DNA of 55,499 nt from the NCBI GenBank assembly GCA_030167865.1, contig JALAGF010004545.1, positions 62,001 through 117,499 of the forward strand, written 5' to 3'. Made by a program: the position numbers and the translations under genes. The stretch is from Craspedostauros australis (lineage: Eukaryota). Below the pieces are notes generated by a model that had not been told where the DNA came from, made no database searches, and saw only the letters and a program-made list of their open reading frames with translations. Below are positions 6,001 through 55,499 of this stretch, in pieces; the first letter of the stretch is position 1, and every line of letters begins with the position of its first letter.

Positions 6001-8884
6001 GGAGTGCTTCGGCGGCAAGCTGAAGAAAGAAACGAAGTGGCCAAACGGTCAAGTCCAGACCGTCGAAAGCGAGCAATATGCCAACGCGCTGATGCTTTTC
6101 TATGAGAAGGTGAAGAAGACCGAAGTCCCGCCGGAGGACGAGGATGATGAAAGCGATGAGGAGACGAACGACGGCGAGAAGGATGAGGAGGACGAAGAAG
6201 CCAAGAAGAAGGCGCTCGAAGAAAAGAAGAAGAAGGCCGAAGAGAACAAGCCTCCCCCGATCCCAAAGGATCTCACAATGTCCTCAGGTTTCGACGTGTT
6301 CGAGCCCGACGTGCGAAGGTCAAACACGACGCACCGTTGGCAGACGCTGCTGTTCGACAACGAATTCCAGATGTTCCTGAAGGGCCTGCTGGGTCTATGT
6401 CGCATGAAGAGCAAGGACGATGTGATGATGGCGGTCTCGCCGGATTCGTCGCCCGTGCAAGAGCCTTCATCCCAGTCATGGCGCTCCACCGTGGTGGACA
6501 TGCTCCTCTCCTTCGTCTTTGACGTGTTGCTGTACTCGACAGAACGCGTGGCTTTGACAGAATGGGTGCGCATGCTCAACGAGACACTGCGCAGAGATCC
6601 GTTGTGCGCGGCCAATTTCATACGCCAGGTGGCAGGCAGAACCCGCACCGTGAGTGCTAACTGGCTGCGAACGTACCTCCTGGACTGTCCCGACAGCAAT
6701 GCTCGTGACGCTGCTGTGGATCTATTCACGGGTGCTCTGGATGCAGCCTTTGACGACCCCACACGTGTGCAATCCTTGCGCGATTGGACGCAGGCATGGA
6801 CGCAGCAGATTACGGAGATCGGCATCCCGAAAACAGCAGTGCCGTGTCAGCTGGAGGGCCGGTTCCAAGTCCATGAAGATCTTCGTCTGGAAGCGACCGG
6901 CAAAAGTTCATCGATCGGTGTGATCCTGTCTCATCTCAACACTTTGCTGGAGGCATTGCCGAGAACATGGCGGCAGTGCATCGATATCAGCAAGCTGATC
7001 CGCAACCTCTCCATGATCAAGTCTGCTGACGGCATGTTCGGGATGACGTCGGCCCTGATCGCCGCGCAAATCCCTGCGCGCTTGATCTGCTTCGTCGCCA
7101 GGGACAAGGTCCCTGACAGCCTCAAGGTCGCATTCCCAGGTTCCAGCGTCTCCGTGGAGGTCGCCGAGAGCCAGACACGTGCCGAGCACAACCCAACAGC
7201 ACATCTGATGCCGTTGGGCGGGGCGGGCCAGGTGATGAACAATTCCGACATGAACTACCGTGGCGGCACCAGCCCGGCCGACAACCTGTACGTGTTCGAA
7301 GCTCTGTGCTGCCTCCTCGGAGCTCCAGGTGCTATCCAAGCCGCAGTCGTCGAGGAGCTCCCGCGTGGACGGCAACGCCACAATCTCACGGATGCCGCGA
7401 AGAAGGCGCTGGCGGAGATCTTCAATGAGTTCTGCGCACCGGGTGCGCCTGGCATGGGCCATAAGGAGATCGAGGAGTACCTGCAGCGCTGCGGAATGGA
7501 CTCCGCGGCGATCCCTCCGCAGAAGATCAACGACATCATGAGCCGGTACCCAATCGAGGCTGATGACGAGAGCCAGATATCATCCTACCTCAGCCTCGAA
7601 GGGTTCTACGCGTATTACAGAGACGCCACGGCAACCAGCGACGAACGTCTTCGATGCGATTTAAACAGCTTCGGCTTCCGGCCGGATTTGAGTCGCAGAC
7701 AGCGAGACACGTACATCGTGGAGAACAACAACCATGTGCGATGGCGCAACACCAACGAGAGCGTGGCAAGAGACATGGCGGTGCACTTCAAGGACGGTGC
7801 CCCGAGCCTCGGCCAGCTGGCTGACGCGGGCCTTTCTTGCTTCCAGCTCTACGGCATCGCCTCCATGTCCGACATCATGTGCGAGCTTCTGCTCGCGGCT
7901 GTCGTCCACGACAGGAACTGCGAGATGCTGATCATGAACACCCTGAGATCGCTCTTCAACGCTCCGTCAGGGTGGGGTGGCAATGAGGTCCTCAACACTT
8001 CGCTGCTCGTGCTGCGCGCGCTCGTGTCGTCGTCGGACGACAAGCAGACAGAACGGATCGAGTTGATCATGACCTGCACCGAACGTGGGTCGCAGCATTT
8101 GGACAGCGGCATCGGGTTGCTGCTGGCGGTTAGAGCCTTCTTTGAAGCCAGGTCCGACCAGCACTACTCGAATGAATACCACCATGGATACGACCGGTAC
8201 GTCTCCGTGCTCAAGGAGCTCATGCTGAACGAGGCGTCGTCGATTTGGCTGGAGAGCAACCGCGATCAGTGGAAATGGATGAGCAGCGACTTGCTCGATC
8301 ACTACACGCAACCGCACTCCCCCAACCACGCCCATCGTGGTGGAGATTACGGCCGTCGCGAGGCGGAGAGCGACGCCGTGCTTGATGGCGACAGGCATTT
8401 GGAACCACAGCATCAGCACCAACATCAGCAGCATCAGCATCCGAACCATCCCTCCGATTCGGATGTCCACCCCATGAACGACTCTGAGGAGGAGGACGAT
8501 GAAGACTCCCAATTCGACGAGCCGCCAGCGTTCCTCATCGTGGAAGATGCCGGCACCGAAGAGATCAACGGACGGTACGCGCAAGATGGCTATTTCGAAA
8601 AAATCCAGAAGTACAGCCGCCATGGCCAATACCAAGGTTCGCCGGTCGTGTTCTCAGTGTTCCGATGCAACGTGAGCAATAACACAAGGCACTGGTACAT
8701 CTCCATTGTGCCCAAAAGCGGTCTGCCAGGGACCTCTGGCGACATTGACTTTTACTCTGCACCAGCCACGGATCACTGCCTGAACTACCCACCTCAGTCA
8801 GGATGGACGAGAGCGAACGTCGGTATTGAACCCACCCCAACAATCGTCTACGTTGACCATGATGCCACCGACGGAACCGTGTAG
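3..8884 (+). CDS. Large ubiquitin C-terminal hydrolase (peptidase C19, USP9/USP24/USP34-like); 5' end lies upstream of the window; two visible exons (<3-1202, 1550-8884)
   Basis: Cys box GLRNQGCTCYMNSVLQQLF (catalytic Cys codon 4628), QQNDASEF, CKEC...CDRC Zn finger, LKRF, His box GVLVHAGVAQGGHYYSFIKDR (His codon 5897) and WFRFDD. The frame is open from nt 3. A phase-0 intron AAG|GTAAGA...CCTCAG|CTC joins ORF 45.. to ORF 1562..8884 in frame. Confidence 0.93.
1203..1549 (+). other. Spliceosomal intron (347 bp) of the USP gene
   Basis: GTAAGA donor at 1203, pyrimidine tract and CAG acceptor at 1549. Contains (TG)n, (CT)n and (CA)n microsatellites. Removal keeps the reading frame. Confidence 0.88.
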
Positions 8885-25908: not shown

Positions 25909-27232
25909 GAGTAGAGAGCTCTACTTTCGTACGAGTGTCATCCACTGCAACGAGGATCAACTCAACGCGCATACCCAAGCGATGCTTACCGCATGACGTG
26001 TACTCTGCACAATCGTCGAATGCGGTACCTCTATCAGTTTGCACCATACCTACATACACCTCCGTAGTACAAAAGTGTAGTAGAGGAGGAGAGGAGCGCC
26101 ATCAATACGAGGACAAGCGTAACACCATACGACCTACACCTATCGTACCAACACCAGAATCTGTACTCGTGGGCGAGGTCGCAGTTTGTTAACCAAGCAA
26201 CTTGTGACCTTTGCCCAGGACTGTAAGCCACGCCGCCGACACTTCGGAATCCCCAGTTGTCGTTCTTCCTTTTGCTGCTGATCCCGTACGGGGATGACAG
26301 TAGCACAGCTCGTGCCATACGAGCTATATACCCCAACACTGCGGATCCGGATTTTGCTGCTCGCTTCAAGCATGTCTCGGGAAGGCCACCAGAGCTGGCG
26401 AAGGGTTCGGTCCCCCCAACGCAAATGGATCAAAGAGGAGCCACAGAGTCACCATCAACCCCCTCCCGCAATTCAATCTTGGCTCCTTGTTCGTCATTGC
26501 GTGTGAAGGTTTCCAACCGAGTGCGCGTCGCACACCAAAAGCACCACAGCTCGCACGAATTTGTCGAGCCGCATATGCAGGCGATATCAATATAATCGTG
26601 CCTAGATACGTGCTGTACATAGAGTAGTCGATAGTCGCACTCGCCCTGCGTCACTCTCATCGTGGATTACTGCCACACCGAAGTTCAGTCGCCAGTGGTG
26701 ACAAGTCTCATCGACAAGACGCGAGGAAACAAATCGATGCTGAGGAGATGTACGACTACGTTCTCTCCCGTCACTTGTACTCTACACATCACCTTCGTCC
26801 CAAACAGATTCGCCACCGGTGTTTCATTTTCGCGAAGTCGAAGGGGACGTCTGCCATGGCAGACGTGTCGTGTCGCTGGTGATGTTGCATCACGGCGTAA
26901 TCGATCGACACGCAATAAGAGCGCGGTGCCTCTGTGCGAATAGTCGTGCTCGTGGTCGTAGGTCGTACCAGTGTTGGTGTGGTTGCATCTTCATTCGCGC
27001 CAGGGTGGTGGGCATGGTTGTCCTTTTTGGAGCATGATGGCAGAATGGTGCGACCCCATCCGCGCCTCCGTCGACGGCGCGAGGACAGGTGATCTCGTGC
27101 GACCTTGGGAAGAAGAGTGCCGAGAGTTGTGGAGCGATGAACTACAACAGCTCTCGTTTGGCTCATGGGACGCGCTTCGATGACGACGATGTCGGTACGT
27201 GGACGAAAGAGACTAGTTTACGACCCACTTGA

Positions 27233-27378
27233 GTGACGGGACCTGCAGTCCGTCCTGGGATGGTGGCAACATACGGGGTTTTCGACCAAGCCGCCCACAT
27301 ATTAATAAACTAGATAAAAATATAAGATGCACTATGGACGCCGATTTTGCTTTAATGTCTTATTTTAATTTTTATGGA
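27233..27378 (+). repeat. Left terminal inverted repeat (146 bp)
   Basis: GTGACGGGACCTGCAGTCCGTCCTGGGATGG...TTTTATGGA. Reverse complement of 31861-32006 with 7 mismatches by manual alignment; the outer 46 bp are identical. Confidence 0.95.
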
Positions 27379-27808
27379 TCTTCGTAGATTTACGGTCCAC
27401 TTGGTCGAATATGCACGCTGCTCCGTGATGATCGCAAGGCATTTATTAGCTTTTCCCATGCAAACAACGCAATGTGCCCAGACACGTTCGGGAAAGGCCA
27501 TTTTTTGACGGGTTGCGCACGGAATTTGACATTTCAGCGACGTCATTGTTTGGCCCGTCCGAACACGTTTTTGAAATAAGGCGCCGTTGTTGGACGTTAC
27601 GGTCCAAATTCAAAATTTGACTCTCGTCACAGGTCGCAAATCTCCTCACATTTTGCCACCAAATCGAGTTTTGCTTTTCGTGGTGGTGTGCGGTGCTTGT
27701 TGCATGCTCATGCAGCGTCTGTATAGTCGCTCTCTTGCCCTCCTCTTGCTCAGTTCACTTCCATCAATACTACTCATCTCCATCCTCCCATCAGTACCAA
27801 TCAGCATC

Positions 27809-30800
27809 ATGCCTGTCTCTACCACGAAAGCTGCGTCGAAGGACGCCAATCCTTCTCCCTCCAAGAAGCAACGTATGCAATCCTCTCCATCTGTGCGCCC
27901 GTTTCCATTGGATCCGATCGATCGCAAGGAACTGTTTGCGCCATCTACTGGTGAGAAGCTTCTGCCTCCATTGGGTATGGATGGGAAACAACACATTCCA
28001 CCGCCTACAACAAACAAGGTCTTGCCTCCTGCGCTCAAAGGTGCGACCTTCGACAACGAGTGTGATGTTGAGATCCTCACCAACAACAAACAGGTTCGCG
28101 CACTCAATGCAACCAACGAGAAGCTCTTCGTCCGTGTGCACATCACCGCCGACAACGGCATGATTCTTGATACCTCCAAGGTCACTGTGCAGGCCTTCAG
28201 ACACGGCTCCAATGGAGGGACGAAGGTGCGTGTCAAAGTCTGCGTCTCGACTCTGAAATCCCTCCCCGCACCCCTTTCCGCACCGACTATCCAACCAGCA
28301 AAGAAAGGCAAGCGCATCCAACATGGCGACGCTGGCGACTACGAAGCCTACCGCCCCAAGAGACACAACAGAACCAAGACCAGGAAATCAAGCGCGAGAA
28401 GGTTCGGATTCAAACCCAACAAGGAGAGGACTGATGCATTTGAAACCATGCACGAGGTCTTGCAGGAGCTCAGAGTGAAGAACCTCGCTTCTGTTCTTGC
28501 TGCCTTTCCTCGTTGCGGATTTGTATTGGGGCGCAATTCCGACAGGCAAGTGTGGAGCAAAGCAAAGAAGATCTTTGCGGTGGCCTCCAATGTGCTGTGG
28601 AAAGCGCTGATCCCAGCCATGACCTTGCCAGTTCCTCAGATGGAACAGGTGGTGGCGTTCGTGCGCGCGGGAGTGGACTTGCCGCCAGTCAAGCTAGCTC
28701 CCAACCTCTACACGATTTGCCTCGTCGGTGAGAAGAACATCGCACGTACAGCAAGGTGCATTCTTGCCATGTCCGCTTCGCCACGCCAGTGCATGAACCT
28801 CCTCACCAATACAAGAGCGAACTTCCTGACGTTCAGCGTCTTGGCCTCTTGCCACAGCAATACACCATCACACAGGGCCAGTTCCTCACTCTGTGCAACT
28901 ACTACAAGCTGTTGAGCAAGGGCAATGTGCTTGGTGCTGCTGTCTACAACTATCGCGTCAGCGCGTACAGCTTGGCCAGTGTGGTGTCCTTCATCAGCAA
29001 CACTACCACATACAAGGCAGGACTTTGTCACAACATCAAGTGGGGAGGGGTGATATTTGAAAATGTGCCAGTATTCGAATGTGGCAGGACAAGCGTAGAC
29101 AAGCTGTTCCAAATATACAAGACTAGGACAAACAACCCAGTCGGTGAGCCAGCATTCCAACAAATGACAGGCCTGCTCATGCGCAGAGGCAAAGTGGTTA
29201 CTGGTCTCTCCTCTTTTGAAAACTACTTCTGGATGGCAACCAAGACGCTGAAGGAGATGCTCGTGCGCTTGAATGCTCTGCTCAAGGATTCATTCAACGG
29301 TGAAGACGCACGCGACGATGCAGCGATTGAATATATTCAAACCTGTGAAACACTGGTGCACGATCTGGACCTTATGATCACATTCCTCAAGTGGGAGTAT
29401 ACTGCTTTGCACATGCAGATCAAGTGCAAAGAAGACCCCATGCACTGCGCTCATTTCGCCCTTCGCAAGGATTCAAAAATTCGACAGGCTAAGTCTACAC
29501 TCAGCACCGAAAACACAACAGTGCCTGCCAACACCAACATGACATACATGGTCATTCATCCTCACACAGCAACCACAGAGTGTGACGCCAACGCCCTTTC
29601 TCCCATTGCTCACGATCAACAAGGCAAGGTATGCGACAGATGTGGAGAAGCGATGCGATCCATGGATGATCGCGTTGCACCTTTCATCAAGACGCTCAAG
29701 GCCAACCATCTATGCGACCACGCGGATGAACTATGCAGTATGCTGGAGGCAGTACTGGGCTTCAACAACGAGATCACTGTGTACATGGCACACCGAGTGA
29801 GAGCAAAGGTCCAATTCGAGCAGATGAACAAGTACAAGGCCAAGCTCAACAACAATGACAAGTGCACCTATGTCGTCATCAACCATAAGCAGAAGATTCT
29901 GCCAACAGCGCAAGGAGAATCGCAGACAGAGTATTGGGGCAAGAAGGGCATGTCCCTCCTTGGTGTTATGATTGTCACCTGCAAAGATGACGAATTCACG
30001 TATTGCTTTGTTGACATAATTGTTCATGGCCGGCCAACCCAAGACACACTTCAAGTCAGTGGGCTTCTAAAAATAATCCAGAAGAAGGTACGCGATCTCC
30101 TACCATCGGTCACAGAAATCATCCTGCAGTCAGACAACGCGGGCTGCTTTGCCAGCCACGAGCGCATCGCGCTTGTCTCATCGCGGATCAACAACAATGC
30201 GTCACGCAACGGACTTCCCCAATTTTTCATTTGGATCTACACAGAAGCCCAAACAGGCAAAGGGCGAATCGACACTCACTTCGCCTACATCACTATCGTA
30301 CTACAATCCTACATGCAAAGCGGCAGCAAAATTCAAACCGAACACGAAATCTTCGACACGATGCGAATGGGAAATATCAGAGGTACTACCACTGTCTTGG
30401 TTGATGCATCAGGTTTGGAAGGTTGCTGCGTGATGCACAAGACAAATCCGCGCAACAGGTTCCACGCGAAGGGCATGAATGTACGATCAACGCATGAGGT
30501 GCAACATGGAAACGGCTACACAGACTTACTTGCGGCTTCAAATGCCACTGATCCAGTGCGAGTGGAGGAAGCGGAATGGGAAGACTATGACATCATGAAT
30601 TTCGAGGTTCCCATCATCAACGAACACCAATCAACGCAACAACCTGACCTAGACTGATAACTAGCTAGAATATCCTAGTCTCCCAATTGAGTCCAGTCAT
30701 GTATCTACTGTTGCCAGCACTGGATCAAGTCCGGTAACGTCCGTGACTGAGACCAGTCAGTTGAGTCCAACCATGCGAGACTCAACTCAGTCGTAACTGC

Positions 30801-31585
30801 GGGGCCAACATATGGAAAACATGCCACCACCAAACTTGATGCCAAAACATGGAAGCAAGTAAATGAGCGACCAGGTGGCGCAGGTTTGGAATTCAGGCGT
30901 GGTTCTTGGAACAGGCACGGAGTAAGCAGAGACGGCATGGCAGAGTGCGCTACTTGTGGAGTAACGCAAAGTAGAGCAGGTGGAGGCAAGAAGGAAGGAA
31001 GGTAATCATAATCTACAATTATCCCTCAATCGTCTGCTGGCATAAGGCAAGCCCATTCGCCCATACCTGGTGGAAGTGTTGGAGGAGGTGTGCAGAGTGG
31101 CACGCGCGGACCCCAAGAACAGACCGACCGAGTACGAGGCATTCAGGCGGTGCATGGAGACGACCGAAATGAAGACTGACTGGTATGCGCGGGTACACGT
31201 GAACCCAATGCGAGTGAAGCAATACATGTCCGCGTCGTACCAGCGCACGAAACCGAAGGCCGCGAACACGAGAACCCCGGAAACCACGATAAACAAAAAC
31301 GTGACAAACACAACGAACACAACTAACACCCCACCACCGACGAACACGAACAGCACCGACACAGAGATCGTGCCTGCACAACACACAACAGCAGATGAGG
31401 AGGAAATCGCGCTGCAACAAGAAGAAAACGAAGCATCGGAGCAAATTGCGTGCGAGACACAAATAATGAAGGAGAATACGGAATTTCCAGAGTTGGTGGA
31501 ACAAAATGTGAGGACACAATTGTTGCGGCGAGTCAGAGCTGCAATGGAGACAAGTTATTACACACATGAAACCCAATTAAGATGA
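27809..31585 (+). pseudogene. Disrupted transposase in three pieces (27809-~28809, ~28810-30657, 31049-31585)
   Basis: Frameshift near 28808-28810 (LT-aa-YKSELP). The first catalytic Asp reads as Asn at 29881; Asp codons at 30133 and 30271 are intact. Five in-frame stops lie in 30655-30750. The C-terminal piece LEEVCRVARADPKNRP...VNPMRVKQYMS is in another frame. Confidence 0.8.
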
Positions 31586-31860
31586 AAAGGGGTAAAGATG
31601 CAGATTATGAGTCTTATCAATGTCGTACGAGTCTGTGCAACTGCTTCACTGCTGGATCGTCCTTGATTGGTGCACGTGTTCACAGCGTAACGCCAATTCA
31701 ACGGTTTCACANGTATCACGGNTTGGAGGGACTAAGAAAATAAATTAGCACTGCAATTGACATCGATAATTNTTCTTTTGGCGATACGAATCAAGGCACN
31801 AAGACACNGAATCTGGCCGTNGTGCGCTAGTCGTGTCTAGATGAGCGCGAAATCGATGGG

Positions 31861-32006
31861 TCCATAAAACTTAAAATAAGACATTAAAGCAAAATCGGCG
31901 TCCACACAGCATCTTATATTTTTATCTAGTTTATGAATATGTGGGTGGCTTGGTCGAAATCCCCGTATGTTGCCACCATCCCAGGACGGACTGCAGGTCC
32001 CGTCAC
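31861..32006 (-). repeat. Right terminal inverted repeat (146 bp)
   Basis: TCCATAAAAC...GGACTGCAGGTCCCGTCAC; inverted copy of 27233-27378. Confidence 0.95.
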
Positions 32007-32028
32007 ACCAGAAGTAAACTTCTGGTGT
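32005..32028. repeat. Perfect 11-bp-stem hairpin abutting the right TIR
   Basis: ACACCAGAAGT-AA-ACTTCTGGTGT. Confidence 0.85.
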
Positions 32029-43008: not shown

Positions 43009-46000
43009 TCACGTTCGTCGCACCAAAGCGTACTGCTCCCTGAGCTGCGACGTCTTCCCATCAGCACCCCATTCCGAAAACAATTTGATTGCCTGTTCGA
43101 GGTGGTACTTCGCAGCATCCTCATCATCCTCGATCAGCAGATGTATTGCGAGGCGCTCATTCGCCATGGCTTGGTTCTGGATCATCCCTGCTCGCCCCCA
43201 GGCGCGGATCACAGCCTGGTACTGCTTCACGGCATCGTTGAAAACATCAGGCTTGTCTTTGCCGTGTGCCTTCAGCGCGGAGCGCTCCGCTTCCAGCATG
43301 GCCAGGTAATCCACGGCATTTGGATTGCCCTTCTTCACCACGTTCTGGAGGATCTTGCGTGCTTTCCGCGACAACTTCTTGTATTTGATACGCTTCAATC
43401 GGGAAAGTCCATTCGTCTGCTTGGCGACGATCATGGAGGCGAAGGAAGCGAAGAACATGAACGGCATCATTGCGATGTATCCGGTCGAATTCTTCACATC
43501 GTCGTCGAACGAGTAATGCGCATGCTTCGCCGCTTTCTCGTAGTCGTTGAAGTATACCGAGACGAACACTTTCGCTCGCAGAACGTTGCGTTCGAAGAAT
43601 GTGTCATGCGTCGTTTCGATGTGACCTGCCGCAGCAACTTCATCGAATGCATCGCCGACGAGTAGCGTCCGATGCTGTGATCTCCCTTGGAGATTGAGGA
43701 TCATCTGCCATCGCAAGGCAAGGTTCTCAACGAGCTTCGTTTGGTTGAAATCGATGCTCACGCGCGTGTACTTCGCGTAGTCTGCTTCAACAGTGTTCAG
43801 CGACTTCGCCGTGAACCAGCAGAGCTCGAGGTAGAACAGGATGCACCACAGGCCGGTTTGCACGTCACCTGTTGCCATGCTCAATGAGTATGCCTCCAGG
43901 AGGGGCTGCTTGCAATCCTCTAACTGCCTCACGCTGTTAAGGACAAAGCCATTCGTGGACAGGGTGGCTCGGGCTACGGCAGATTTGTCCTCAATGTTCA
44001 TCGTCCTGGTCAAGTTCAGTGCGTAGCTTCCGTACATCTTCGCTGCCTCCATGTCACCCAGGATGGGGCCCAGCATCAGCGACATGTTCGCGATGGCGTT
44101 CGGTGCAAAATCGGTCTTGCCTTTCGTCATTGTCCGGTTGATGATGTCCGTCAGGATCAGTGGCTGGAGCCCTTGATCGCAGACGAATGCCATCGACGCA
44201 AACTTCCCCAATGTCTTCATGGTGATGGCATCTATCGGGTCCTGCGCAGGCTGCAAGGATTCCAGGTACCCAATCGTCCATTTCTTTGCAGATTTCTTGA
44301 GCTGGATCACGCGCATGATGACATGCATCAAGCGAATCTTGCTGTTCCTGGGGTATCGGTATCCGAGCTGCGCCATCACTTCCTCGCCAACCTTCATGGT
44401 GTCAGTGGCTTTGCTGCCAGTGGCCGTGGCCAGAGCTCCGTCCATCAGCACGTGGTAGACCCTGATCTTCTCAGTTATCGGCCGGTCCTTCAACGAGACG
44501 ACTTGCTTGCCGTACTCATTCATCTCTTGAAACTTGTTGCTCACGAAGGCGCATTCGGTAGCGCACGTGAACAGCTCGAGGCTCATTTCGTAGTGCGAGT
44601 CCCAGTGACCCTCCGGCATCAAGTTGATCGCCGTACGAAGATACTGGAATGCGGCGACAAACGCTGCATGCGACGCAGCTTTGATCCCCGCCTCGAAGTT
44701 CAAGATTGCCATTCGGAAGCGTTTGCACATCGGTGCGATATCCTGGTTTACGGGAGGGTCCGTTTGGGATGTCGGCGACGAAGTCGGGGGCGAAGTCGAT
44801 GGCGACGATGGATATGGTGGGATCAAATCCATGCGACGGTTCATCAAATTTGCCACAGTGTACAGCGACCGATCGAGGTCGTCTGGCGACAGCTGCTGCA
44901 TCAGGGTTTCACCTATGTAGAACTGAAGCTGCGATAGCTGTGACTTGGATGGGACCATGTCAAGGGCAGCCTCTTGCACTTTGTCATGAATGAAAGAGTA
45001 TTCAGACGACACGAGGGTTGGTCTGGACATTCTCTCCTCGCTCCCGTTGTTCCTGGTCGCACCAACGGCCGCGGCAACAGCCTGCTCTGCTTCTGTGCCT
45101 GCGCTTGCATCGGTAGCATCGCCATTACTGGCCTTGATGGCGCTTGCAATGTTCACCGCATTGACTTTCGCGGCTACGATCATGGGAGGATTTGATTGAT
45201 CGTCCGATGCGACATGTTTTGGGCTATCTGAGTATTCATGGCACTCGATGAGACCTTCTTGCTGATACACCTCCAGGATACCAAGCCACTCATCTTCGCT
45301 CTGTGGTGGTGGCCCGCCAAACAGCATTTCGTACAATTCACGGTGGCCTGCCATTTGACCTTCCACGAACCCTCTCATCGTCGCCCGCAGCAGCGACCAC
45401 GAAAAAGTCGATCCCAAGCATGCTGCAATGGGCAGGATGTACTGTGCTGTCTCGATCTGTTGCAGCTTCATCTTCATCAACTCCACCACGTTCATGGTTG
45501 CTGGAGTATCGCGTCTGATCCGATCATTGTCCCACACCCACCTCATCGCACCGATGTTGTAGGAGAGGAGGTTGTCATGTGCGAGCATGGTCATGAACTG
45601 TTGCACAAAGAAGACGTTCCCGTCCGTCTTCTTGTGCACGATCTCGGCGAGCTCGGAGCTGCTGGAGTTGGGTTTGGCCATGTATTGATGACGGCTGGAG
45701 TTGGCTTTGGCCATGTATTGATGACGGCTGTGGCTGCTGTCTGCGTTCAGGCTATCATGGAGATTTAGCAGCTGCTTCAACATTGCGTGGACGTTATCCA
45801 ACGACAGATTGTTGACTTCGAGGTCCGAGTACCGGATGAACCGTTCCTGCCTGTTCTCTCGGATGCAGTCGAGCATTTGGCTGACATGGTTGCTGCTGCT
45901 CGAATTTGAAAGCACGCCTGAAACGTTGGCGTCGTCGCGATTGACGAGGTTGGAGCGGTAACAGACGATGATCATGAGCGAGGAGATGGTCGTATCGAGC

Positions 46001-47730
46001 ATCCATGATTCGATCATGTCCAATGATGCCTTGTCCGCCCATTGGACGTCATCTGACATCCAGACCAACGGGCAGTAGTTGCAGATGATCTTGATGAAGC
46101 GACGGAAGGCAAACTTGAGCGCGATCGATTGCTCCTTGAACCCTTGCATGGATTGCGCACGCGCACCGACGGATACCACTGTGCTTTCATCGTCTCGTCT
46201 GGATGACGCAGCGACTTCGGGCAACAGTGCGTCGTCACCAATGACGTCCCTGAGGTTGGGAATGAGCTTCATGAGGATCAGCAGTTCATCGGTGTTCAGG
46301 TCTCGCAAGATGCACTGTCTGAGCTCATCGTAGCACCGAGTGTCGCCTGTCTCGTTCGATGGTGAGTTCTGCGTCTTCTCGTTTGGGAGGCGGCAAATTT
46401 GAGAGCACAGATCGATCATGGCGGTCCTGAACCCTGAGTAGGGTTCGTCCATTTGCTTCAGATCGAACTTGCCCGTGATGTAGAACACGTTGTGCGCTTT
46501 GCACTTGGGCTTCAACGTTGCCGCCAAAGCGGACTTGCCAGTTCCAGAGTATCCAGAAATGGCCACAAATGACCGAACCGTCTCGCTGTGAGCGGCAATC
46601 TGGATTTGACTTTCGACACTCATTTCATCGTCGATGATGGGCGCTGTTGACTTTGTTTCATCTTCATCTTTGTGCTTCTGCTGCTGATGCTGCTGATGGT
46701 GGTGACGGGGTTGCTGTTTGATCGAAGCCCTCTTGTGTTTCTGTACCATCGCAGAACGGGACGACGGGCGTTGAGTGATCGCTGTTGATTGGACGTTCGG
46801 CGGCACCCTACCGAGGATCTGTTTGAACGCATGGTCCAGAACCCGCTTCTCCCTCTCTCTGCCAACCAGACCGACCGTGGAGAAGTCCAGCATTTGCATT
46901 GTCAATGCCGATAACTTTCCAGCGATGCTCATCCTGTACGTCTCGGTTGCCAATTCCGGTTCCTGTTCGATCGTGGGATCCGCCGTCGATGTCGCCGCGG
47001 GTAGCATGCCGCTGTCGCTATGCTCCTCCTCCGTATCATCTGTGGCATCTCTATTTCGTCGTCTGTTCGCAAGGCTTGCAATGCTCAAGAATAACGATGA
47101 TGAGCCAGTCTCGCTATCGTCGGCGCCAACCGTACGGTCGGTGCGGAAATCACCGCTTCCGTGACTCCCCATGACTTTGGAAAGCTTGATGGCATCTGCG
47201 TTTGGGTTTGGACTTGAGGTTGCACCTCCATCAGCGCCTGGGCTTGGGCTTGGGCTTGGGCTTGGACTTGCGGTGCCTTGCTTCCACTTGACCGAAGATG
47301 AACCGTTGGCCAAGACAGCGTCCAGGTCTGCAGAACCTCTTGATCCTCGCACGTGCGCTCCACCCGATACCGTGGGGGTACTGTGCTCAACGATGGTTCC
47401 GGTGTGATCCACAACGCCGATCATGATCGCTGTTTGATGCTGTAGAGTCGTTGCTCGTCGTTCCCGTTGATGCCGTGAAATTTTCAGCGTGTGTGGTGTT
47501 GTGGAGGTTGCTCCAATTATGTCTCGTGGAATGGAATGCTGCTGTTTGATGGATGGTCCGCCTCCATCCGACAATCGGGCAGCCCTGATTTTCGTTGTTG
47601 TTTTGATGTTTGGGTCGATGTCCCGTGGGGCCTCGTTCGTTGATGGACGTGGGAATGCACAGTTCCTCTCCTTCAAGGTCTGATCGGGTGGTGGTATCGC
47701 TGATTGTGTCTGTTGCGTCGGATTCTCCAT
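43009..47730 (-). CDS. STAND-class P-loop ATPase (AAA_16/COG3899-like) with a C-terminal TPR-like helical region; start may be the ATG at 47424
   Basis: LVGRERE, Walker A GYSGTGKS (46554-46531), GKFD...EPYS, Walker B WMSDDVQWAD, KTDGNVFFVQQF, AACLGSTF, YSFIHDKVQEAA, NFEAG..A, C-terminal A.ANER...F.EWGA..K. Confidence 0.9.
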   Translation of the reverse strand: MENPTQQTQSAIPPPDQTLKERNCAFPRPSTNEAPRDIDPNIKTTTKIRAARLSDGGGPSIKQQHSIPRDIIGATSTTPHTLKISRHQRERRATTLQHQTAIMIGVVDHTGTIVEHSTPTVSGGAHVRGSRGSADLDAVLANGSSSVKWKQGTASPSPSPSPSPGADGGATSSPNPNADAIKLSKVMGSHGSGDFRTDRTVGADDSETGSSSLFLSIASLANRRRNRDATDDTEEEHSDSGMLPAATSTADPTIEQEPELATETYRMSIAGKLSALTMQMLDFSTVGLVGREREKRVLDHAFKQILGRVPPNVQSTAITQRPSSRSAMVQKHKRASIKQQPRHHHQQHQQQKHKDEDETKSTAPIIDDEMSVESQIQIAAHSETVRSFVAISGYSGTGKSALAATLKPKCKAHNVFYITGKFDLKQMDEPYSGFRTAMIDLCSQICRLPNEKTQNSPSNETGDTRCYDELRQCILRDLNTDELLILMKLIPNLRDVIGDDALLPEVAASSRRDDESTVVSVGARAQSMQGFKEQSIALKFAFRRFIKIICNYCPLVWMSDDVQWADKASLDMIESWMLDTTISSLMIIVCYRSNLVNRDDANVSGVLSNSSSSNHVSQMLDCIRENRQERFIRYSDLEVNNLSLDNVHAMLKQLLNLHDSLNADSSHSRHQYMAKANSSRHQYMAKPNSSSSELAEIVHKKTDGNVFFVQQFMTMLAHDNLLSYNIGAMRWVWDNDRIRRDTPATMNVVELMKMKLQQIETAQYILPIAACLGSTFSWSLLRATMRGFVEGQMAGHRELYEMLFGGPPPQSEDEWLGILEVYQQEGLIECHEYSDSPKHVASDDQSNPPMIVAAKVNAVNIASAIKASNGDATDASAGTEAEQAVAAAVGATRNNGSEERMSRPTLVSSEYSFIHDKVQEAALDMVPSKSQLSQLQFYIGETLMQQLSPDDLDRSLYTVANLMNRRMDLIPPYPSSPSTSPPTSSPTSQTDPPVNQDIAPMCKRFRMAILNFEAGIKAASHAAFVAAFQYLRTAINLMPEGHWDSHYEMSLELFTCATECAFVSNKFQEMNEYGKQVVSLKDRPITEKIRVYHVLMDGALATATGSKATDTMKVGEEVMAQLGYRYPRNSKIRLMHVIMRVIQLKKSAKKWTIGYLESLQPAQDPIDAITMKTLGKFASMAFVCDQGLQPLILTDIINRTMTKGKTDFAPNAIANMSLMLGPILGDMEAAKMYGSYALNLTRTMNIEDKSAVARATLSTNGFVLNSVRQLEDCKQPLLEAYSLSMATGDVQTGLWCILFYLELCWFTAKSLNTVEADYAKYTRVSIDFNQTKLVENLALRWQMILNLQGRSQHRTLLVGDAFDEVAAAGHIETTHDTFFERNVLRAKVFVSVYFNDYEKAAKHAHYSFDDDVKNSTGYIAMMPFMFFASFASMIVAKQTNGLSRLKRIKYKKLSRKARKILQNVVKKGNPNAVDYLAMLEAERSALKAHGKDKPDVFNDAVKQYQAVIRAWGRAGMIQNQAMANERLAIHLLIEDDEDAAKYHLEQAIKLFSEWGADGKTSQLREQYALVRRT
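45661..45730. repeat. In-frame 33-bp tandem duplication in the STAND ATPase gene
   Basis: GCTGGAGTTGG(G/C)TTTGGCCATGTATTGATGACG x2 with one mismatch; encodes SRHQYMAK(A/P)NS twice. Confidence 0.9.
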
Positions 47731-48376
47731 CGATCACGATTGCATTTGCGATGCCTGTTGTGACCCGCAAGAGGTAACAACAACATGTGGGGAATGAACA
47801 CCAATGAAGGCATCTGTCTGAAGGGGAGGCGCTTTCGCATTCCTGGCGAATTGCGGCAAAGCCTTCTTCAACTATGTGTTTTGCACTTTGGTTCGTCATG
47901 GACGAACTCAATATTGACAAAAATGTCACTGGCCCACTTATACGACCATCAGACTTTCATAGGTCATAATGACAAAAACTCATGTTTTGGGAGTTGAGTT
48001 AATTACGCAATTCAACGAAATCGACAAAACTAACGTCGGAGTCATCCATTCTAGTCATGTATATGAAGAGGAAACAGAAAAGCAAGGAGCGATACTACGA
48101 ACAAGTGCAGAGCATTCGCTGCGAACAGATGGGTACTACGAATCAGGAGTAGAAACAAACGACAGGCGGAGAGCGTCGCCCAACTCGAGATATTCTATCA
48201 CACTCGTCTGACATGTTATGACAGAAGAGTTTTGCAACTACGAGTGTGTGCTCTAGCGATAGGCTGTTGCTGCTGCTGCATTGCTGTTGCTGCATTGCTC
48301 ATGTTGTTTTGTTGGCGCCATTTAAACCCTCATCCTGACGTGTGAAAGTACGTCGCCATACCTTTCCCGCAATCTT

Positions 48377-51300
48377 TCATGGTCCTTTCTCCCGCTCCCT
48401 TGGAAGGAAATGGCCATGGAATTTGTCGCCGTAGTCGAAGAAGAGCTGTGCAATCCAATGCAAACATGGAAGCAAGGCGAGTATTCGTTGGCAGTGCGCC
48501 ATAACAGAGCATTGCGTGAGTGAGTGAGAGGAGACCAAGAAATGCAGAGAATACTTGCGGATGGCAGATAGAGGAACAAGGGGACGAGGACGAGAAGGAA
48601 GATGCGCAGGTGGGACATTCGAGCATCTATTGCTCTTCCCGCAGCACGAATAGCCGAAAAACAAATGGAACGAATGCATTGCGCCAGACAAACAACGGAA
48701 TGAGCTCACCTCCTCTTGCTTCTTGATGTTCCGATTGGCGTACAGCGCGATCTTGGGATCCCCTTGCACGAACCATGTATCGGGTTGAACATTGTAGGTC
48801 TGGCCATCGTGATTGATCCACCGCGCCATGTTCCCCATGCGGAACGCGTCAATCACCATGTCCGACGTCAAGTCGAAGATGTAGCTGTTGTTGATCTCGT
48901 CATACACTTTGTTGCCAAGATCATCGGCCTTGTTCTGGCTGAGGAGCTCGCCCTTGTACTGCGCACGGGTCGAAGTGCGGGGCGTGTCGAAGAAGGCAGA
49001 ACGGGTTGTACGAGTGGTATCCAGTTCCAATATGTTGCGTGCACAAAGATGTGATGTCGATATCGAGGGATGGATGGGTGGGCGGAGCGGAGCGGTCGAT
49101 AGGTTGAAAGATGGATAGAGAGGTGATTGTGAGAAGATACGCTTCGAGAGATGCGATAATGTCCCTCATGATCTGCGGGAAAATGAGAACATATGATACA
49201 CATTGATTGAGAGGCGACCGCATCACTGAAGGTTTTTCACTGATGCGCCATCGATATCGCAGCTTCTGCAGAACCTACCGAATCGACAAACTGTCCACGC
49301 CGTATGGTCTCCATGGCGAAGCATCCAAAATTGGCCCCAGGAACATCCGATTCACCCTTGCTGAGAAGTGGATGCCTCCTCATCGTGATGTTGTCATTTC
49401 GGCATTGCTGCGTCATGATCGGGCGCCCCGCACGCTCTGAACACGCCCCGCACGCCCTGCAGAGGTTGGGATCGCATTCTCGTTTCGCGGCGAAGCATGG
49501 ACATTGATTGTTGTCGCACCTTGCGTTGCAGGTGCATCCTCTGAAGAAGTTGGGACTGAACTCGGCGAAGCAGCATCGTCTGGTGCAGAAGAAACCATTT
49601 TGCATGCATGTGCAATTTTCCAGAGTGCAAAGTCCGCTCTCCACGTGGTTGCAAGGGAATGGATGTGGCCGTTGGCCGATTTCCTGGCAGTACTTCGCCA
49701 TGTTGCAGTGGTAGTGATTCTTCCTGTTCTTCTTCTTGGACTTCGTCTCCTTGGGATGCTCCAGCGTGTACTGTACCTCTGGCAGCGGCAGGAACTTGAT
49801 CCGCTGCTCGATGATGCTCAATGGTATCCTAGTCGCTTCGGCTATCTTCGCCAGGTTTCCATCGAACAGATACCACAGCGATTGGCACGTCGTGATTTGT
49901 TCTTCTGTCAACGTCTGATCTCGTGGGAACGACGCCGCCGTTTTGTTGCGGGGCTGCAGCGAACTTTGGGAATTGTTGCAATCAGAAGTTTCCGATGCTG
50001 CGTTCCCGATGGCCATCGTCCTGGCGGGGGCGGGAGTAGTGGCAAGCATAGAAGGGACAATCGAAGTGGCGCCAACAACGCTTGCAGCGGTCGCCGTAAC
50101 AACGTTCATGCCTCCCGCTTCGCTTTCCTGAGAGTCAAGTTGTCAAGTATATCACATGTCGAGATGTATCGAGCCACCCCATGACACACCAATGTATTAC
50201 CGGCACGCAATGCAAGATATGACGTGACATGGCAAGGCGAGACAAGACAAGAGAGAAAAATAACAACAGTAGAGAAATGTGGGGATGCCTTTGAGATGAT
50301 GGAGAAACGAACGTGTCGAGTCATATTCAGGTGCCATATTGTGCTGTTTCTGTTGCCATGCATGGCATGGTATGAAACGACACTCACATTTGCATTCATA
50401 TTTGCATTCGCATCTGGATTGGTACGTACCCTGATTTCGTGCCGCTTCTTCGCCAGATGCATCTGATGGATCGGGTCGCTTTCTGGTAAAATGCCATGCT
50501 GGGAACAGCAATACTCAAGGCAGATCGGGCAAAACAGCCGAAAGCTACTCATCGTGTCCTCGTAAATCTCGGCGTAGGACGCTTTGTTCAGCTGATGCCT
50601 GATGCCGCCATCGGCCGTTAATTGCGCTTGGTTTCGATTTTGCCGTTGCCTTTGCCGCCGCTCCCGTAATCTGCACCGCCTTCGCTCCTCGAAATGATCC
50701 GACACCATCTGTTGGACGTAGGAGACCTTGGCCTGCATCAAGAATGCCAAGTAGCGCACGATGCATTCCTGCTTTTGCTGCCAAGTTAGGATCATGTCAC
50801 CGCGATCCAGATGGAGCTCGTCATCTTGCAGCATGAGGTGGTACTCAGATGACATGTGGTTCGCTGCGACCAATGCCTTGGAGACCTTCTCCATCTCCTC
50901 CAGCCGCTCGTAGTAGTACTCCCACGTGTCCATTCGCTCTCTGATGGCGTTCGGCACGTGGAACTGGCCCACTTTCTCATGGAACAGCGCCTCCCTTGGC
51001 GACCTTGCCTGTGGCTTCTCTCCATTGCGTCTGTGTCCGTTTGTTCTCTTGCGCTTCCGATTCCGCTTCCGATACGCAGCTGTGGCTTGGCTTGGATTGT
51101 GCCAACCTGCACGACTGTTCGGGAACCCATCCCGGTTCTGCGTCATGCCCAACCTGCGGATACTCTCGCCGTCGGAGCGATCCCCACCGCGACGAACTAA
51201 CAGTTCTGAACTGCCAATGGAATCGTGGGTTTCTGACGACGACGTCGACGAGCTGTCATCTTCTTCGCTTGTCGTTGCGTAAAGTGGATCATCGATGAAG

Positions 51301-52529
51301 CCACGCTTTCCGTAGCTGCCGATGCCCAGCCGCGCATTCAAGGAATCCTCGTAGCAACGGATGAGCTGCAGGTAGTCATCATCATCAGGCTCCTCGATGT
51401 CACCAAACTCAACAAGCCACCGATCAACGGAATCCTTGAGGTACAGCGCTGCCGACTTGACCTGCCCCGTATTGCATGCGGCCATCTCCAATGTCGTCCG
51501 TGGCAGATAGCCAGCCAGCTTTCCGCGGCACGGTCCACTCTTGGCCGACGGGAGTTTTCCGTCCGCTCTGTCTTGCCGGATTGCCGTCACTATCGTCTCG
51601 ACGAATGCACGGATCTGCCGCATTCTCTTCGAATCCTCTAGAATATCGATCTCAACAGAAGCCACGATTCTGAACGATGGGGATGCTGGCGCAGCAGCAG
51701 CAGAAGTAGTGGCGGCAGCGGCAGGAGACGATGATGACGATGACGTTGATAATGCTGACGGCGGTGAAGGGCGTGAAGATTCTCGCTTTGAATCATACTC
51801 GTCAGCGTGCAGACCCGACGTGGTGGAAAGGCTAGTCGAATCGCTAAGAGTGCTGGAGGAGGAGCCGCGCCTTGTATCGCCGTTTGCATTGCTTTCGTTC
51901 GCGTTGGTTCCATCGCGTTCGGGAGCATCGCCGAGGCTGTCAAGATCGCTTTTCGTCAAGTCGATTTCGTCTACACCGACCTGGTCCGGCACATCGCTGC
52001 TCATGCTCATGCTGGACTCGTCGGTTGTGTCAACACTGCCATAGTTACGTGGAGGAGCAGGAGCTGGGTCATGGGGAACATTGCGGCGGTGTATTCGTTT
52101 GCCTGCATGAACCAAATCCTTCCTTCTTTTCTTCAGAATTCTTTTCCAGCTTTGTGAGCTCGAGCTGCATAGATCTCCTCCATCATCCACTGATGATGAA
52201 TCCGGTGATTCCATGGCGGCCGATGCCGTTGCCGCTGCAGAAGCTCGACCCGCCGACGATCGGCGTCTTCCGTTCGATCTGGGTCTCTTCTCTCCGTTTG
52301 CACCGGGCCTTCGGGATTCAACACCGTCACCAGGAACGCCGCTGCTGCTGCCGCTGGAACCAAGGTCATCGGAGCTGGTGGATTCATCTTGCGAGGCCGC
52401 GCCGCTGCCTGCACCCCCATAGCGCAGCAAAGTGGCCGTCTGGTGCAATGGCAAGTACGAGTTGCGCCCAATGCGATTCGCATCGTCGCCGTGACCCACC
52501 GTCCTCTTCTTGCGTGTCTTCCTGTCCAT
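48377..52529 (-). CDS. E(z): Enhancer-of-zeste-like histone H3K27 methyltransferase (PRC2 catalytic subunit), ~1088 aa; exons 52529-50430, 50127-49279, 48958-48710, 48445-48377
   Basis: LFCPICLEYCCSQH (MCSS-like); CXC domain PCNH...C.C..NGFFCTRRC...FRGCTC...CPCFAAKRECDPNLC; SET motifs FGCF, YKGELLSQ, SYIFDL...IDAFRMGNMARWINH, EELFFDY. Three phase-0 GT-AG introns (50128-50429, 48959-49278, 48446-48709) give a continuous frame. Confidence 0.9.
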
Positions 52530-55499
52530 GGTTGCGCAGAGGTAGGGCGCCTGGTATCATATCTTCTTGAGCAAGAACTTGTGCGTGGAAATGGTGGTTG
52601 CTTGATTGGATGGTTCTGTGGTTGTCACGTTCGGTGTTTTGTGATGTTCTCGGATCGGGTGATTGTGCCTGTCCTCGGAACAGCCTTTTGCCACCGACCG
52701 ATCGTCGTTTGTGACCTTTTGTGGTTTGTGATCCACACACGACCAGCGCGCAATTGTACCGTTGCGGATTTCGAATTTTGGACACCACCAAAGGTGCATC
52801 GTTGACCCGGACCGATGGAGGTTGGGCCTTACTTCTGATGAACAAAATTCCAATCACGCTTTGTCAGTCGTGTTAATAGGCTCATGTATGTATGTCTACA
52901 TTGACATGAATGTATGTTTGTGTGTATTTATGATTGTATGTGTGTTGATGTCTGTTTGTGTGGAAAATTCAAGTGTGTCCTTTATGATCATTGTTTCGTG
53001 TTGTGGTATCAACGAAGGTGTACAATTGATAGTGTATCCGCCTGTGGTATTCGATTATGGCATGAGAGCGGATGTTACTCGGTCGCAAGTGGCTCTCTCT
53101 CTCTCTGGGGAGTAGAGGAGAGTAATCCGCTCGGCCGCACCACGTCGCCATGGTGCTTCACCACACCACACTCGACTCTTTCTACGAATCAGAAGCAGGC
53201 AGAGCATCCAACTCGTACCAATCCCGAGAGTGCCCCTTCAGTGTCGTGTCGGCGTCCAATCCAGTGCCGACGACCAATGGCGTATTACTCGGAATGCAAT
53301 ACTGAAGGCTCCTCGGCTAACCGAGACGTTCAATCTCCGAGCACCATACCACATAATACAGCACGAGTACATACGGATGCCGCCGGCGATGTTTGCGCTT
53401 GGAACCGCATCCGATTGCTCTTGCGATGAAACTGGCGGTCCCAGGTTGTGCAGTGATGGACATCTTCGGTTGGGATACGGCACGGTGCTACTGGCCCTCC
53501 GTATTGTGTTGTATTCTATTAGACTATTCACGCAAAAGAACAACCGCAAGGGAGCCACGGGTCCTCCCAAGGGGCCAAGCCCAGAGAAGTCAACTTTCTG
53601 CATGTGCAGCCCCCCATCGACATTCTGCACATCACGAATAGAATAAAGGAGTTGAATCGTCGATCTGTGGTCCTGACACAGCGAAGGAACAAGATGTAAT
53701 GCTTGGACCAAGTCGTAGCGCCATTTCCATAAGTGTTGTGAAGGGTTCTGCCAGACTTTGCTGCCTTCACTGACTGAAAAATGTGGCGCCGTTGTGTTGG
53801 GATCAACACTTTCATACATATATACATATCGGTTGCTTGGTTGTGTTGCTGCGCGAACGCGCTTCAATTTGTGAGGAGAAGGACCATGCCGCTGCCACAC
53901 GACCACGACCACGAGTGTGCTGCTTGTCATGTTCGCGAGGTGTTGAGCATTGTTGGTCCCTCGGATGCTCTTTCTGGGATTCGTCACAACCACCACACGG
54001 CGATTCGACAACTTCACACGTATGTAGTCGTGGAGCGCGAAGACAGGCGGATAAGTGTGGGAGACGACATTCTTTGTCTGATCGTCACTCCTTGAACGGA
54101 CGTCCATCCCTGGACAAAATACAAGTAAGATGGGCACCGGCAGGGTATCTGTGCACGGATGCGATCCAGAAATGATCTTGTGGTTCCATCATGCATTCGA
54201 GGTTGGATCTGCGAGAGGATCCACAAAGAGAAGCCAACCCCGTTTGTCGAAATGTGGGCGATCGTTCGTTGGAAATGCCTCTCTCTTGTGTCCCAGGGTT
54301 CGTTCTGGGTGGCGCGGTGCGGCCTTCGGTGTGGTCGCGAAATGAGCGCTGTGTGGCGCATGAATCACGATCATAATGAAGCATTCATGACCCAGGGTAT
54401 CTGTGTGGTGTTTCGTGGTTCGGCCTTTTGTGTTTGTTTTTGCCTTGGCGCGGACTGGGCAGAAAGGTCCAACAAGCACCTTCACAGCGCTCAACCCAAC
54501 GCGTCCAAGCCAAGAAGGCAACGATGTCGCCACCAATAGCGCCAACAGCACCAACAGCGCCAACAGCATAAAAAACACGATTCTGGAATCTCTAGTAAGC
54601 CATCGCCCTCTTTCGTCGCCGGCGCTTTTGTGAGTATTGTCGACATGTGCCGATCTGCTCCTGTTGGATCAGTTTGAGGGTCGAGAGCATTCAGCAAGAG
54701 AGTTCCTTGCGCTGACGGGCATGCCATACGTACCATGCTATAGAAATATGCAGGGGGTGTACAATATTGTAAAATGCATATGATCAAAACATGGCATCGC
54801 ATTCTAGATATTGTATGGTGATGAGCTCTGTGTATGAGCAATATATACGCGCACATGTGTATACTCTATTATGTTCTATTGGAGCAGGAGCAATCGTACG
54901 GCGTGGCAGAGGACCGGAATGCTGCCACTCGCCTCTTGTGGCTGCTTCTGCCGTCTGCTCTCGAGCTTGCGGGCAGATCCGCATGAACATGGACGAGTGT
55001 GCCTGTCCTTGTTTGTTCGTGTGCGTTGTCGAGCACTCTCCAAGCATAATGATGACACCGGAAGATGTGTCCATTGGCTCATTCGCTCGTTTGCATGCTT
55101 GTCTGGTTGTCCACTTGGCTACTACCAAGAATTATTGTGCTCGTATGTATTCCTCCGTTCCGAAATGATTGCAACTTATCGTTTTTGTCATCGGTTCGAC
55201 GCCGTGTCGTAGTGGCCGACTTTGGGAGCTGCGGGAGACCCTTTTCCCAGTCGCCTCCCACCCTGACCTGACGCATCCTTGTTGACCTTTGGTACCCATC
55301 GTAGTATCGTCAATAGTTGATATACTAGTGTATGTAGGTACCAATTAAACCGTGCCATACAAACAGAGGACAGCATCTCCACATTTAGACTGCTTGTCCA
55401 GCGCCATGCCTCCGCGTTTCTGTCATTGAAACACTGTGCAAGAGTTGGTTTGTGTGCTTTCACTTGTCCGATTGGTTGGACGGTTAATTCTTATCGTGA

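What the first reader, a model, noticed from the sequence alone, without database searches (positions are those of the whole stretch)
27233..32006. Complete 4.8-kb TIR transposon with a highly divergent Sola3-like DDD transposase in a diatom-like genome
Seen: 146-bp TIRs (7 mismatches, outer 46 bp identical) bracket a transposase. Its motif order is HC..FAL, H...CxxC, AH..R..Q, [D]xKxKxLP...ESQ..xWGKKGxS, SDNAGCF, E.Q.GK..ID..FA and a C-terminal 'VKQYMS' helix. Established: this order matches what I recall for Sola3 transposases, described mainly from animals and oomycetes with TTAA targets and GAG..CTC ends. Inference: this is a divergent, probably unnamed stramenopile family with short TIRs and different termini.
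Basis: partly seen in the sequence, partly recalled or inferred. Interest (0 to 1): 0.75.

Follow-up and report, generated by a model that had tools for sequence, protein, structure and literature searches.

The report
Diatom Sola3 transposon with hairpin scars
This is a dead copy of a large family of cut-and-paste jumping genes in a diatom; one of its ends, and ends of several sister copies, carries a mirror-image scar suggesting that this little-studied enzyme class cuts DNA by sealing the neighbouring host DNA into a hairpin, as the antibody-gene-shuffling enzyme RAG does.

Summary
The inverted repeats and motifs are real, but the copy is not complete and its ends are not unusual. Sister copies place the true ends 11 bp further out (GAC…GTC; GAG…CTC in sister subfamilies) and show a 4-bp NTAN target duplication (190 of 206 intact ends). 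The protein is in register with the published Sola3 profile, compared by eye. This copy is dead: a frameshift, first catalytic Asp→Asn, and a solo LTR insertion. Silicon-transporter genes indicate a diatom host.

The new observation is at the right end, which has lost its tip and gained an inverted copy of the flank. Of 17 damaged ends, 8 share one geometry and 0 of 206 intact ends carry such a palindrome; 3 of 68 background palindromes fit. The geometry is what a flank hairpin would leave: a nick 2 nt into the flank, then attack at the exact end. hAT, Transib, MULE and RAG work this way, and at least Hermes and RAG use an insertion domain that this protein appears to lack. My searches found no Sola mechanism in print. 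The mechanism is inferred from one assembly, without reads or a fold. No earlier scan note bore on it.

The parts
27218..27221 (+). Left target-site duplication, TTAC (NTAN type)
   Evidence: 190 of 206 intact ends have NTAN
27222..27378 (+). Intact left TIR, 157 bp, starting GACCC
   Evidence: Copies share sequence out to 27222 and diverge beyond it
27809..28807 (+). 5' part of the transposase gene (presumed ATG at 27809), ended by a 1-bp deletion frameshift after about 28805-28807
   Evidence: reads through in frame in L034 and L044
28808..30644 (+). Transposase core: Cys/His cluster 29443-29643, HxxR 29788-29814, D1 mutated to Asn (29881), D2 (30133), E of EAQxGK (30244), presumed D3 (30271)
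   Evidence: conservation in A2/A3; Sola3 HMM register
30645..31049 (+). Probable solo LTR, 405 bp, TG…CA, replacing about 205 bp of the transposase; no TSD here, 5-bp TSDs at three other loci (two insertion sites)
   Evidence: 33 genomic matches; flanks
31050..31585 (+). 3' part of the transposase (VKQYMS helix and low-complexity tail)
31861..32006 (-). Right TIR, lacking its outer 11 bp
32005..32017 (-). 13-nt inverted copy of the right flank including the whole TSD; 2-nt microhomology with the TIR; forms palindrome 32005-32028 with the flank, which lacks the first 2 nt of the TSD (inferred hairpin scar)
   Evidence: the TSD read from the palindrome equals the left TSD TTAC

Best explanation
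This is a non-functional copy of a multi-subfamily Sola-superfamily DNA transposon with a Sola3-type DDD transposase (about 1,200 aa, one ORF) in a diatom. Shown: the family inserts at NTAN and duplicates 4 bp. Inferred: to excise, the transposase nicks the non-transferred strand 2 nt into the flank, between T and A of the target. The freed flank 3'-OH attacks the other strand exactly at the element's 3' end. This caps the host DNA with a hairpin and leaves the precise 3'-OH needed for integration. Host nucleases open the hairpin, leaving a 3' tail of 10-16 nt that is an inverted copy of the flank. More weakly inferred: in these ends the tail was not clipped but re-primed, through 1-6 nt of microhomology and nearly in register, on an intact copy of the element (sister-chromatid gap repair). 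The element was thus restored with its tip replaced by mirrored host DNA, which would immobilise that end.
For: Identity: Sola3 HMM register; D-D-D conserved in 134 aligned sequences; sister copy L045 reads TTAA|GAG…CTC|TTAA. TSD: 3 intact pairs match (L031, L043, L045), and nested insertions with an empty paralogue show one 4-mer duplicated (L027+L190 against L058; L006+L126 against the TIR). Hairpin geometry: 8 of 17 non-intact ends read flank-N-T, then N'-T-A-N' and the reversed flank with arms of 8 or more; 0 of 206 intact ends have such arms. One further end fits with a 6-bp arm and one with a single substitution. Background: 3 of 68 palindromes fit (Fisher p 7e-8 for 8 of 9 against 3 of 68). 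In 40 loci fetched after the rule was set, 2 exact fits and 1 near fit appeared. In 3 cases the palindrome predicts the partner end's TSD (window, L040, L032). In 5 of the 8, the loop bases are those of the transferred strand, which snap-back synthesis from the flank's 3' end would not give. Net length change is within ±2 nt in all 8 (permutation p 0.004). Precedent: flank hairpins in hAT, Transib, RAG and MULE (PMC5499845 Discussion; PMC6900584 passages).
Against: One fragmented assembly, with no reads laid on it and no excision footprints seen. No structure could be predicted, so D3 and the absence of an insertion domain rest on sequence (D2-D3 46 aa). The published HMM ends before D3. Hermes and RAG shape the hairpin with an insertion domain that this protein seems to lack. 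Four paired copies have flanks that share at most the TA (L022, L024, L033, L070). L037's partner end does not show the predicted TSD. Six non-intact ends do not fit and L018 needs two substitutions. Near-zero net length change is also typical of replication template switching (recalled), and my anchors cannot see losses deeper than about 20 nt. The first six cases were the discovery set. The same duplex could come from a hairpin with the 2-nt offset on the other strand.
Confidence: 0.68

Rival explanations
1. The element is an ordinary Sola3-type transposon, and the scars come from short-range replication template switching at a transposase-bound or nicked end, with no covalent hairpin.
For: Inserted and lost lengths are coupled (r 0.91) and the re-entry points have 1-6 nt of microhomology in 7 of 8 cases, as template switches do (recalled).
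Against: Both the departure point and the start of the copy are fixed to the TSD in 8 of 8 cases while N1 varies (G, T, A), so no base pairing fixes the switch. Background palindromes rarely fit (3 of 68).
Confidence: 0.17
2. The transposase cuts both strands by hydrolysis with a 2-nt stagger, and host enzymes (ligase or polymerase theta) make the fold-back afterwards.
For: A compact core with 46 aa between D2 and D3 resembles transposases that cut by two hydrolyses, such as Tc1/mariner. The same two bonds would be cut.
Against: Snap-back synthesis after fill-in would put the non-transferred-strand bases in the loop, and 5 of 8 cases show the opposite. Ligation of a 2-nt overhang onto its own end is sterically poor (general knowledge).
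Confidence: 0.1
3. The palindromes are library or assembly artefacts at repeat borders.
For: The assembly is fragmented (6,734 contigs) with N gaps inside copies; four pairs have mismatched flanks; no reads could be laid.
Against: An artefact would not respect a 2-nt offset within the TSD, reproduce the partner end's TSD in 3 cases, or occur in both family groups. Two scars carry substitutions, as old DNA would (L240, L018).
Confidence: 0.05

Closest known systems
Sola3 (Sola superfamily; Bao et al. 2009, not held; profile from PMC5751038 Supplementary File S1)
   Same: Motif order and spacing of the RNase H-like core; DDD; 4-bp TSD; TIR length and element size within the published Sola range (PMC10741241); sister copy L045 has TTAA|GAG…CTC|TTAA.
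   Different: Target is relaxed to NTAN (TTAA in only 15 of 206 ends); the window's subfamily ends GAC…GTC (the TTAA and GAG rule is recalled); D1 context is DHKQK instead of the profile's dwaqk; host is a diatom.
hAT (Hermes), Transib, RAG1 and MULE (Muta1): flank-hairpin cleavage
   Same: Inferred chemistry: first nick on the non-transferred strand, attack on the transferred strand, hairpin on the flank opened by the host (PMC5499845, PMC6900584).
   Different: No sequence match; no room for an insertion domain between D2 and D3; inferred nick 2 nt into the flank (Hermes 1 nt, RAG 0 nt, recalled); third catalytic residue presumed Asp.
piggyBac
   Same: DDD transposase and a 4-bp target centred on TA (recalled).
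   Different: piggyBac puts the hairpin on the transposon end (PMC6900584) and excises without footprints (PMC7351741 listing); no Pfam match.
Sola elements reported in the diatom Cyclotella cryptica (PMC7466962)
   Same: Sola superfamily listed in a diatom repeat library.
   Different: Subgroup, ends and target are not given in the passages read; I did not open Table S6, so identity with this family is untested.

Membership tests
Sola superfamily | DDD transposase | tested here: met
   D101, D185 and D231 are nearly invariant in the alignments. D1 is Asn in this copy but Asp in 10 of 15 other family copies read. Catalytic role is inferred.
Sola superfamily | 4-bp TSD | tested here: met
   3 intact pairs match and 2 nested insertions with empty paralogues confirm it; 4 pairs mismatch.
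Sola superfamily | TIR 11-1124 bp, mostly 2-9 kb long (PMC10741241) | tested here: met
   TIR 157 bp; full copies about 4.6 kb.
Sola3 | Transposase matches the Sola3 RNase H-like profile | tested here: met
   By eye against HMM consensus positions 1-42 and 69-131: D..KvlP…E.q.dyfgkkgisl, lpgikkvllrsdnaGcY, sEaQnGK; D1-D2 is 84 in both. No score was computed and the Sola1 and Sola2 profiles were not compared.
Sola3 | TTAA target (recalled, not found in a held text) | tested here: not met
   TTAA in 15 of 206 intact ends, NTAN in 190 of 206; hence filed as a Sola3-lineage variant.
Sola3 | GAG…CTC termini (recalled) | tested here: inconclusive
   GAG 99, GAC 104, other 3 of 206; the window's subfamily is GAC. 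A metagenome relative also has TTAA|GACCC (L259).
RNase H-like fold | Predicted or solved fold | not testable with these tools
No PDB sequence match; weak rve hits in 4 of 44 homologues, best E 0.0043.
Flank-hairpin transposases (hAT/Transib/RAG/MULE) | Hairpin formed on flanking DNA | tested here: inconclusive
   Genomic scars fit in 8 of 17 damaged ends; no biochemistry.
Flank-hairpin transposases (hAT/Transib/RAG/MULE) | Insertion domain between the second and third catalytic residues | tested here: not met
   46 aa between D2 and the presumed D3; not a member, only works-like.

The most novel reading that the evidence does not exclude
Sola3 transposases excise through a hairpin on the flanking DNA, nicking 2 nt into the target between T and A, using a compact RNase H core with no insertion domain. 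The conserved Cys/His cluster and HxxR helix upstream of D1 may do the DNA-shaping job instead. This would be a further structural solution to RAG-like chemistry and, as far as my searches reach, the first mechanism for the Sola superfamily.
Probability: 0.62. Interest if true: 0.82.

Novelty: new variant of a known kind. Interest (0 to 1): 0.64.

Why it matters
As a catalogue entry it is modest: a large, apparently undescribed Sola3-lineage radiation in a diatom with a relaxed target. The scars matter more. They give nucleotide-level predictions of which two bonds a Sola transposase cuts, for a superfamily where my searches found no mechanism. Flank hairpins are tied to the insertion-domain clade that gave rise to RAG, so the same chemistry in a compact core would mean it arose separately or does not need that domain. 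An intact-frame copy (G000:C66, L043) makes the test direct, and reading damaged ends as records of cleavage could be applied to other unstudied superfamilies from assemblies alone.

Tried and rejected
No fold or fold search was obtained, so the fold question stays open. Pfam gave nothing above cut-off for four window frames or for the L043 core; the PDB sequence search gave one irrelevant hit at E 0.7. The ESM Atlas gave only hypothetical-protein clusters (commonest taxa Cnidaria, Rotifera, Arthropoda), some with DUF7869: a lead only. No sequencing run was listed for the right junction; that is no evidence. No empty allele of the window's left flank is in the assembly. No relative was found in prokaryote genomes: 23 pattern matches, 0 confirmed. 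Bao 2009 and Yuan & Wessler 2011 are not held. The Majorek 2014 supplement is cut before the Sola families, and 12 of 33 supplements of PMC10294476 were searched without a hit; the unseen files may hold Sola3 end and target definitions. The palindrome control had a bug (it kept the widest loop) and was replaced. A 1-bp or 2-bp (TA) TSD was considered and rejected on the nested insertions. Earlier scan notes returned nothing or unrelated bacterial REP/MITE items.

Full report
1. Observation. The inverted pair 27233-27378 / 31861-32006 is real: 146 bp, 7 mismatches, the first at position 47. The listed protein motifs occur in the stated order. The boundaries are wrong. A search of the window's genome with the left end gave 41 matches (40 of 122 candidates scored), and the copies agree 11 bp further out, to GACCC preceded by NTAN. 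The element therefore starts at 27222 after TTAC, and its right end has lost the outer 11 bp.

2. State of this copy. Against three sister copies it has a 1-bp deletion after about 28805-28807, and a 405-bp segment (30645-31049) in place of about 205 native bases. That segment is a separate TG…CA repeat with 33 genomic matches and 5-bp duplications at two other insertion sites, a probable solo LTR. The first catalytic Asp is Asn here; it is Asp in 10 of 15 other copies read, Asn in 4 and Gly in 1. The copy cannot encode an active enzyme.

3. The family. The core protein has 129 matches in the genome (123 of 203 candidates scored), in several subfamilies. Forty-three genomic cores form one clade (support 0.87, midpoint-rooted FastTree) apart from 103 database cores. 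L043 (contig C66) has an open frame of 1,258 codons between TIR arms that are 95% complementary. End motifs match 63 places for the window's group (control 0; 103 with a looser inner motif, control 1) and 220 places for sister groups (control 3). I fetched only part of the latter. There are 1.4-kb internal-deletion derivatives, 82-91% alike. The host has 92 silicon-transporter matches, which indicates a diatom.

4. Ends and target. Of 225 distinct ends, 2 were uninformative (N run or contig edge). Of the other 223, 206 are intact: 190 follow NTAN, 15 of them TTAA; the termini are GAC 104, GAG 99, other 3. The duplication is 4 bp. L031, L043 and L045 match at both ends, and two nested insertions have an empty paralogue with a single copy of the 4-mer; a third was seen by eye (L163/L182). 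Against this, L022, L024, L033 and L070 have mismatched flanks. Age, recombination or chimeric assembly could explain that; none was tested.

5. Classification. Pfam and PDB sequence searches gave nothing useful. HMMER found 871 relatives at E<=0.001; the few names seen were uninformative. The alignments conserve DHKQK, E.Q.YxGKKGMS, SDNA, EAQxGK, LDTHF, an upstream Cys/His cluster and HxxR. The Sola3 HMM in PMC5751038 Supplementary File S1 has consensus D10-waqkvlPkkyrEkqsdyfgkkgisl, sD94naGcY and sEaQnGK. That is the same order, with the same 84-residue D1-D2 spacing as the window protein. This was read by eye; positions 43-68 were not read and no score was computed. Sola is described as DDD with a 4-bp TSD and TIRs of 11-1124 bp and has been listed in a diatom. 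The TTAA and GAG rule for Sola3 is recalled and is not strictly met, so I file this as a Sola3-lineage variant. A metagenome relative has TTAA|GACCC ends (L259), so GAC ends are not peculiar to this genome. No prokaryotic relative was found.

6. The scar. Read from flank toward element, an intact end is F-N1-T-A-N2 followed by the TIR. The window's right end is F-N1-T, then N2'-T-A-N1' and the reverse complement of F, then the TIR from position 12. The 4-mer read from the palindrome equals the left TSD. Eight of 17 non-intact ends have exactly this form with arms of 8 or more (L004, L006, window, L037, L040, L184, L242, L249); no intact end has such an arm (0 of 206). L010 fits with a 6-bp arm and L240 with one substitution. 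L018 needs two substitutions (by eye). L008, L024, L028, L189, L197 and L226 do not fit. Of 74 distinct palindromes in the DNA then held, all 6 at TIR ends fit and 3 of 68 elsewhere did. Forty loci fetched afterwards gave 2 exact fits, 1 near fit and one 7-bp non-fitting palindrome at an intact end (L223). Partner ends confirm the predicted TSD in 3 cases and fail to in 1 (L037, whose partner is itself damaged). The other partners were not available.

7. Mechanism. Shown: the junction form and its statistics. Inferred: the strand running into the element stops 2 nt short and continues directly as the opposite flank strand from the exact junction. This is the covalent joint of a flank hairpin made by a nick between T and A and attack at the element's 3' end, as described for Hermes and RAG (PMC6900584) and for MULE and Transib (PMC5499845). 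In 5 of the 8 cases the loop bases identify the transferred strand, which excludes snap-back synthesis from the flank's 3' end. The mirror reading, with the offset on the other strand, gives the same duplex but would leave donor bases on the transferred end, whereas TSDs are whole target copies. The inverted copies are 10-16 nt, rejoin through 1-6 nt of microhomology in 7 of 8 cases, and change the length by at most 2 nt. I read this coupling as an unclipped hairpin tail re-priming in register during gap repair from an intact sister copy. This is the weakest step: template switching also couples lengths (recalled), and my anchors hide deeper losses.

8. Why it is surprising. Hermes and RAG use an insertion domain to shape DNA for hairpinning. 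Here only 46 residues separate D2 from the presumed D3. No fold could be predicted, so this rests on sequence.

9. Literature seen. Passages: PMC4455052, 10.1101/2021.09.26.461848 (27), PMC3845634, PMC5751038 (supplement search 99, parts 69, 70, 72, 73, 74), PMC3985635 (supplement listing, searches and part 1: 39, 44, 47, 50), PMC5199201, PMC10741241, PMC7466962, PMC5499845 (Discussion whole), PMC6900584, PMC5753468. PMC10294476: supplement search only, 12 of 33 files (98). PMC7351741: search listing only. Bao 2009 and Yuan & Wessler 2011: nothing (recalled). Searches listed no paper on Sola cleavage chemistry or on such scars at retained transposon ends; I saw listings only, and most subscription papers are outside this library.

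10. Verdict. The element itself is a dead member of a Sola3-lineage family with a relaxed target (confidence about 0.9). The hairpin mechanism has probability about 0.62-0.68 and is directly testable. Interest 0.64.

Noticed in passing
window 30645-31049; L044/L057/L098; L197: The 405-bp probable solo LTR sits in Sola-family DNA at three independent sites (here; at the start codon, shared by three copies; in a TIR in L197), among 33 matches of which only 8 loci were inspected. This may reflect targeting or TE clustering.
   Followed up: partly
L068, L124, L163/L182, L006/L126, L027/L190: Family members often insert into each other's TIRs or directly at each other's TSD, sharing one 4-mer between two ends.
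   Followed up: partly
window about 31550-31723: A segment of about 175 bp is present in this copy, L031 and L032 but absent from L033, L036, L037 and the 1.4-kb derivatives; it changes the protein's last residues.
   Followed up: no
G000 genome-wide: 92 silicon-transporter matches, many full length, suggest an expanded SIT family; the number of genes and allelic redundancy were not resolved.
   Followed up: no
L219, L220, L224, L229: Four ends on different contigs share the same flank and a non-TA 4-mer; probably the end of a larger or composite element rather than four insertions.
   Followed up: no
L036:1-2634 (minus strand): A gag-pol-like frame, resembling a Copia-type retrotransposon by eye, lies inside a family copy.
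   Followed up: no
L170: Tandem duplication of a TIR tip (about 43 bp) at one end of a sister-group element.
   Followed up: no
window 1529-8884, 43009-47733 and 48377-52556 (minus strand): Host genes by eye: a large ubiquitin-specific protease, an AAA-type ATPase-domain protein, and a split CXC/SET-domain gene resembling E(z); not verified by a family search.
   Followed up: no
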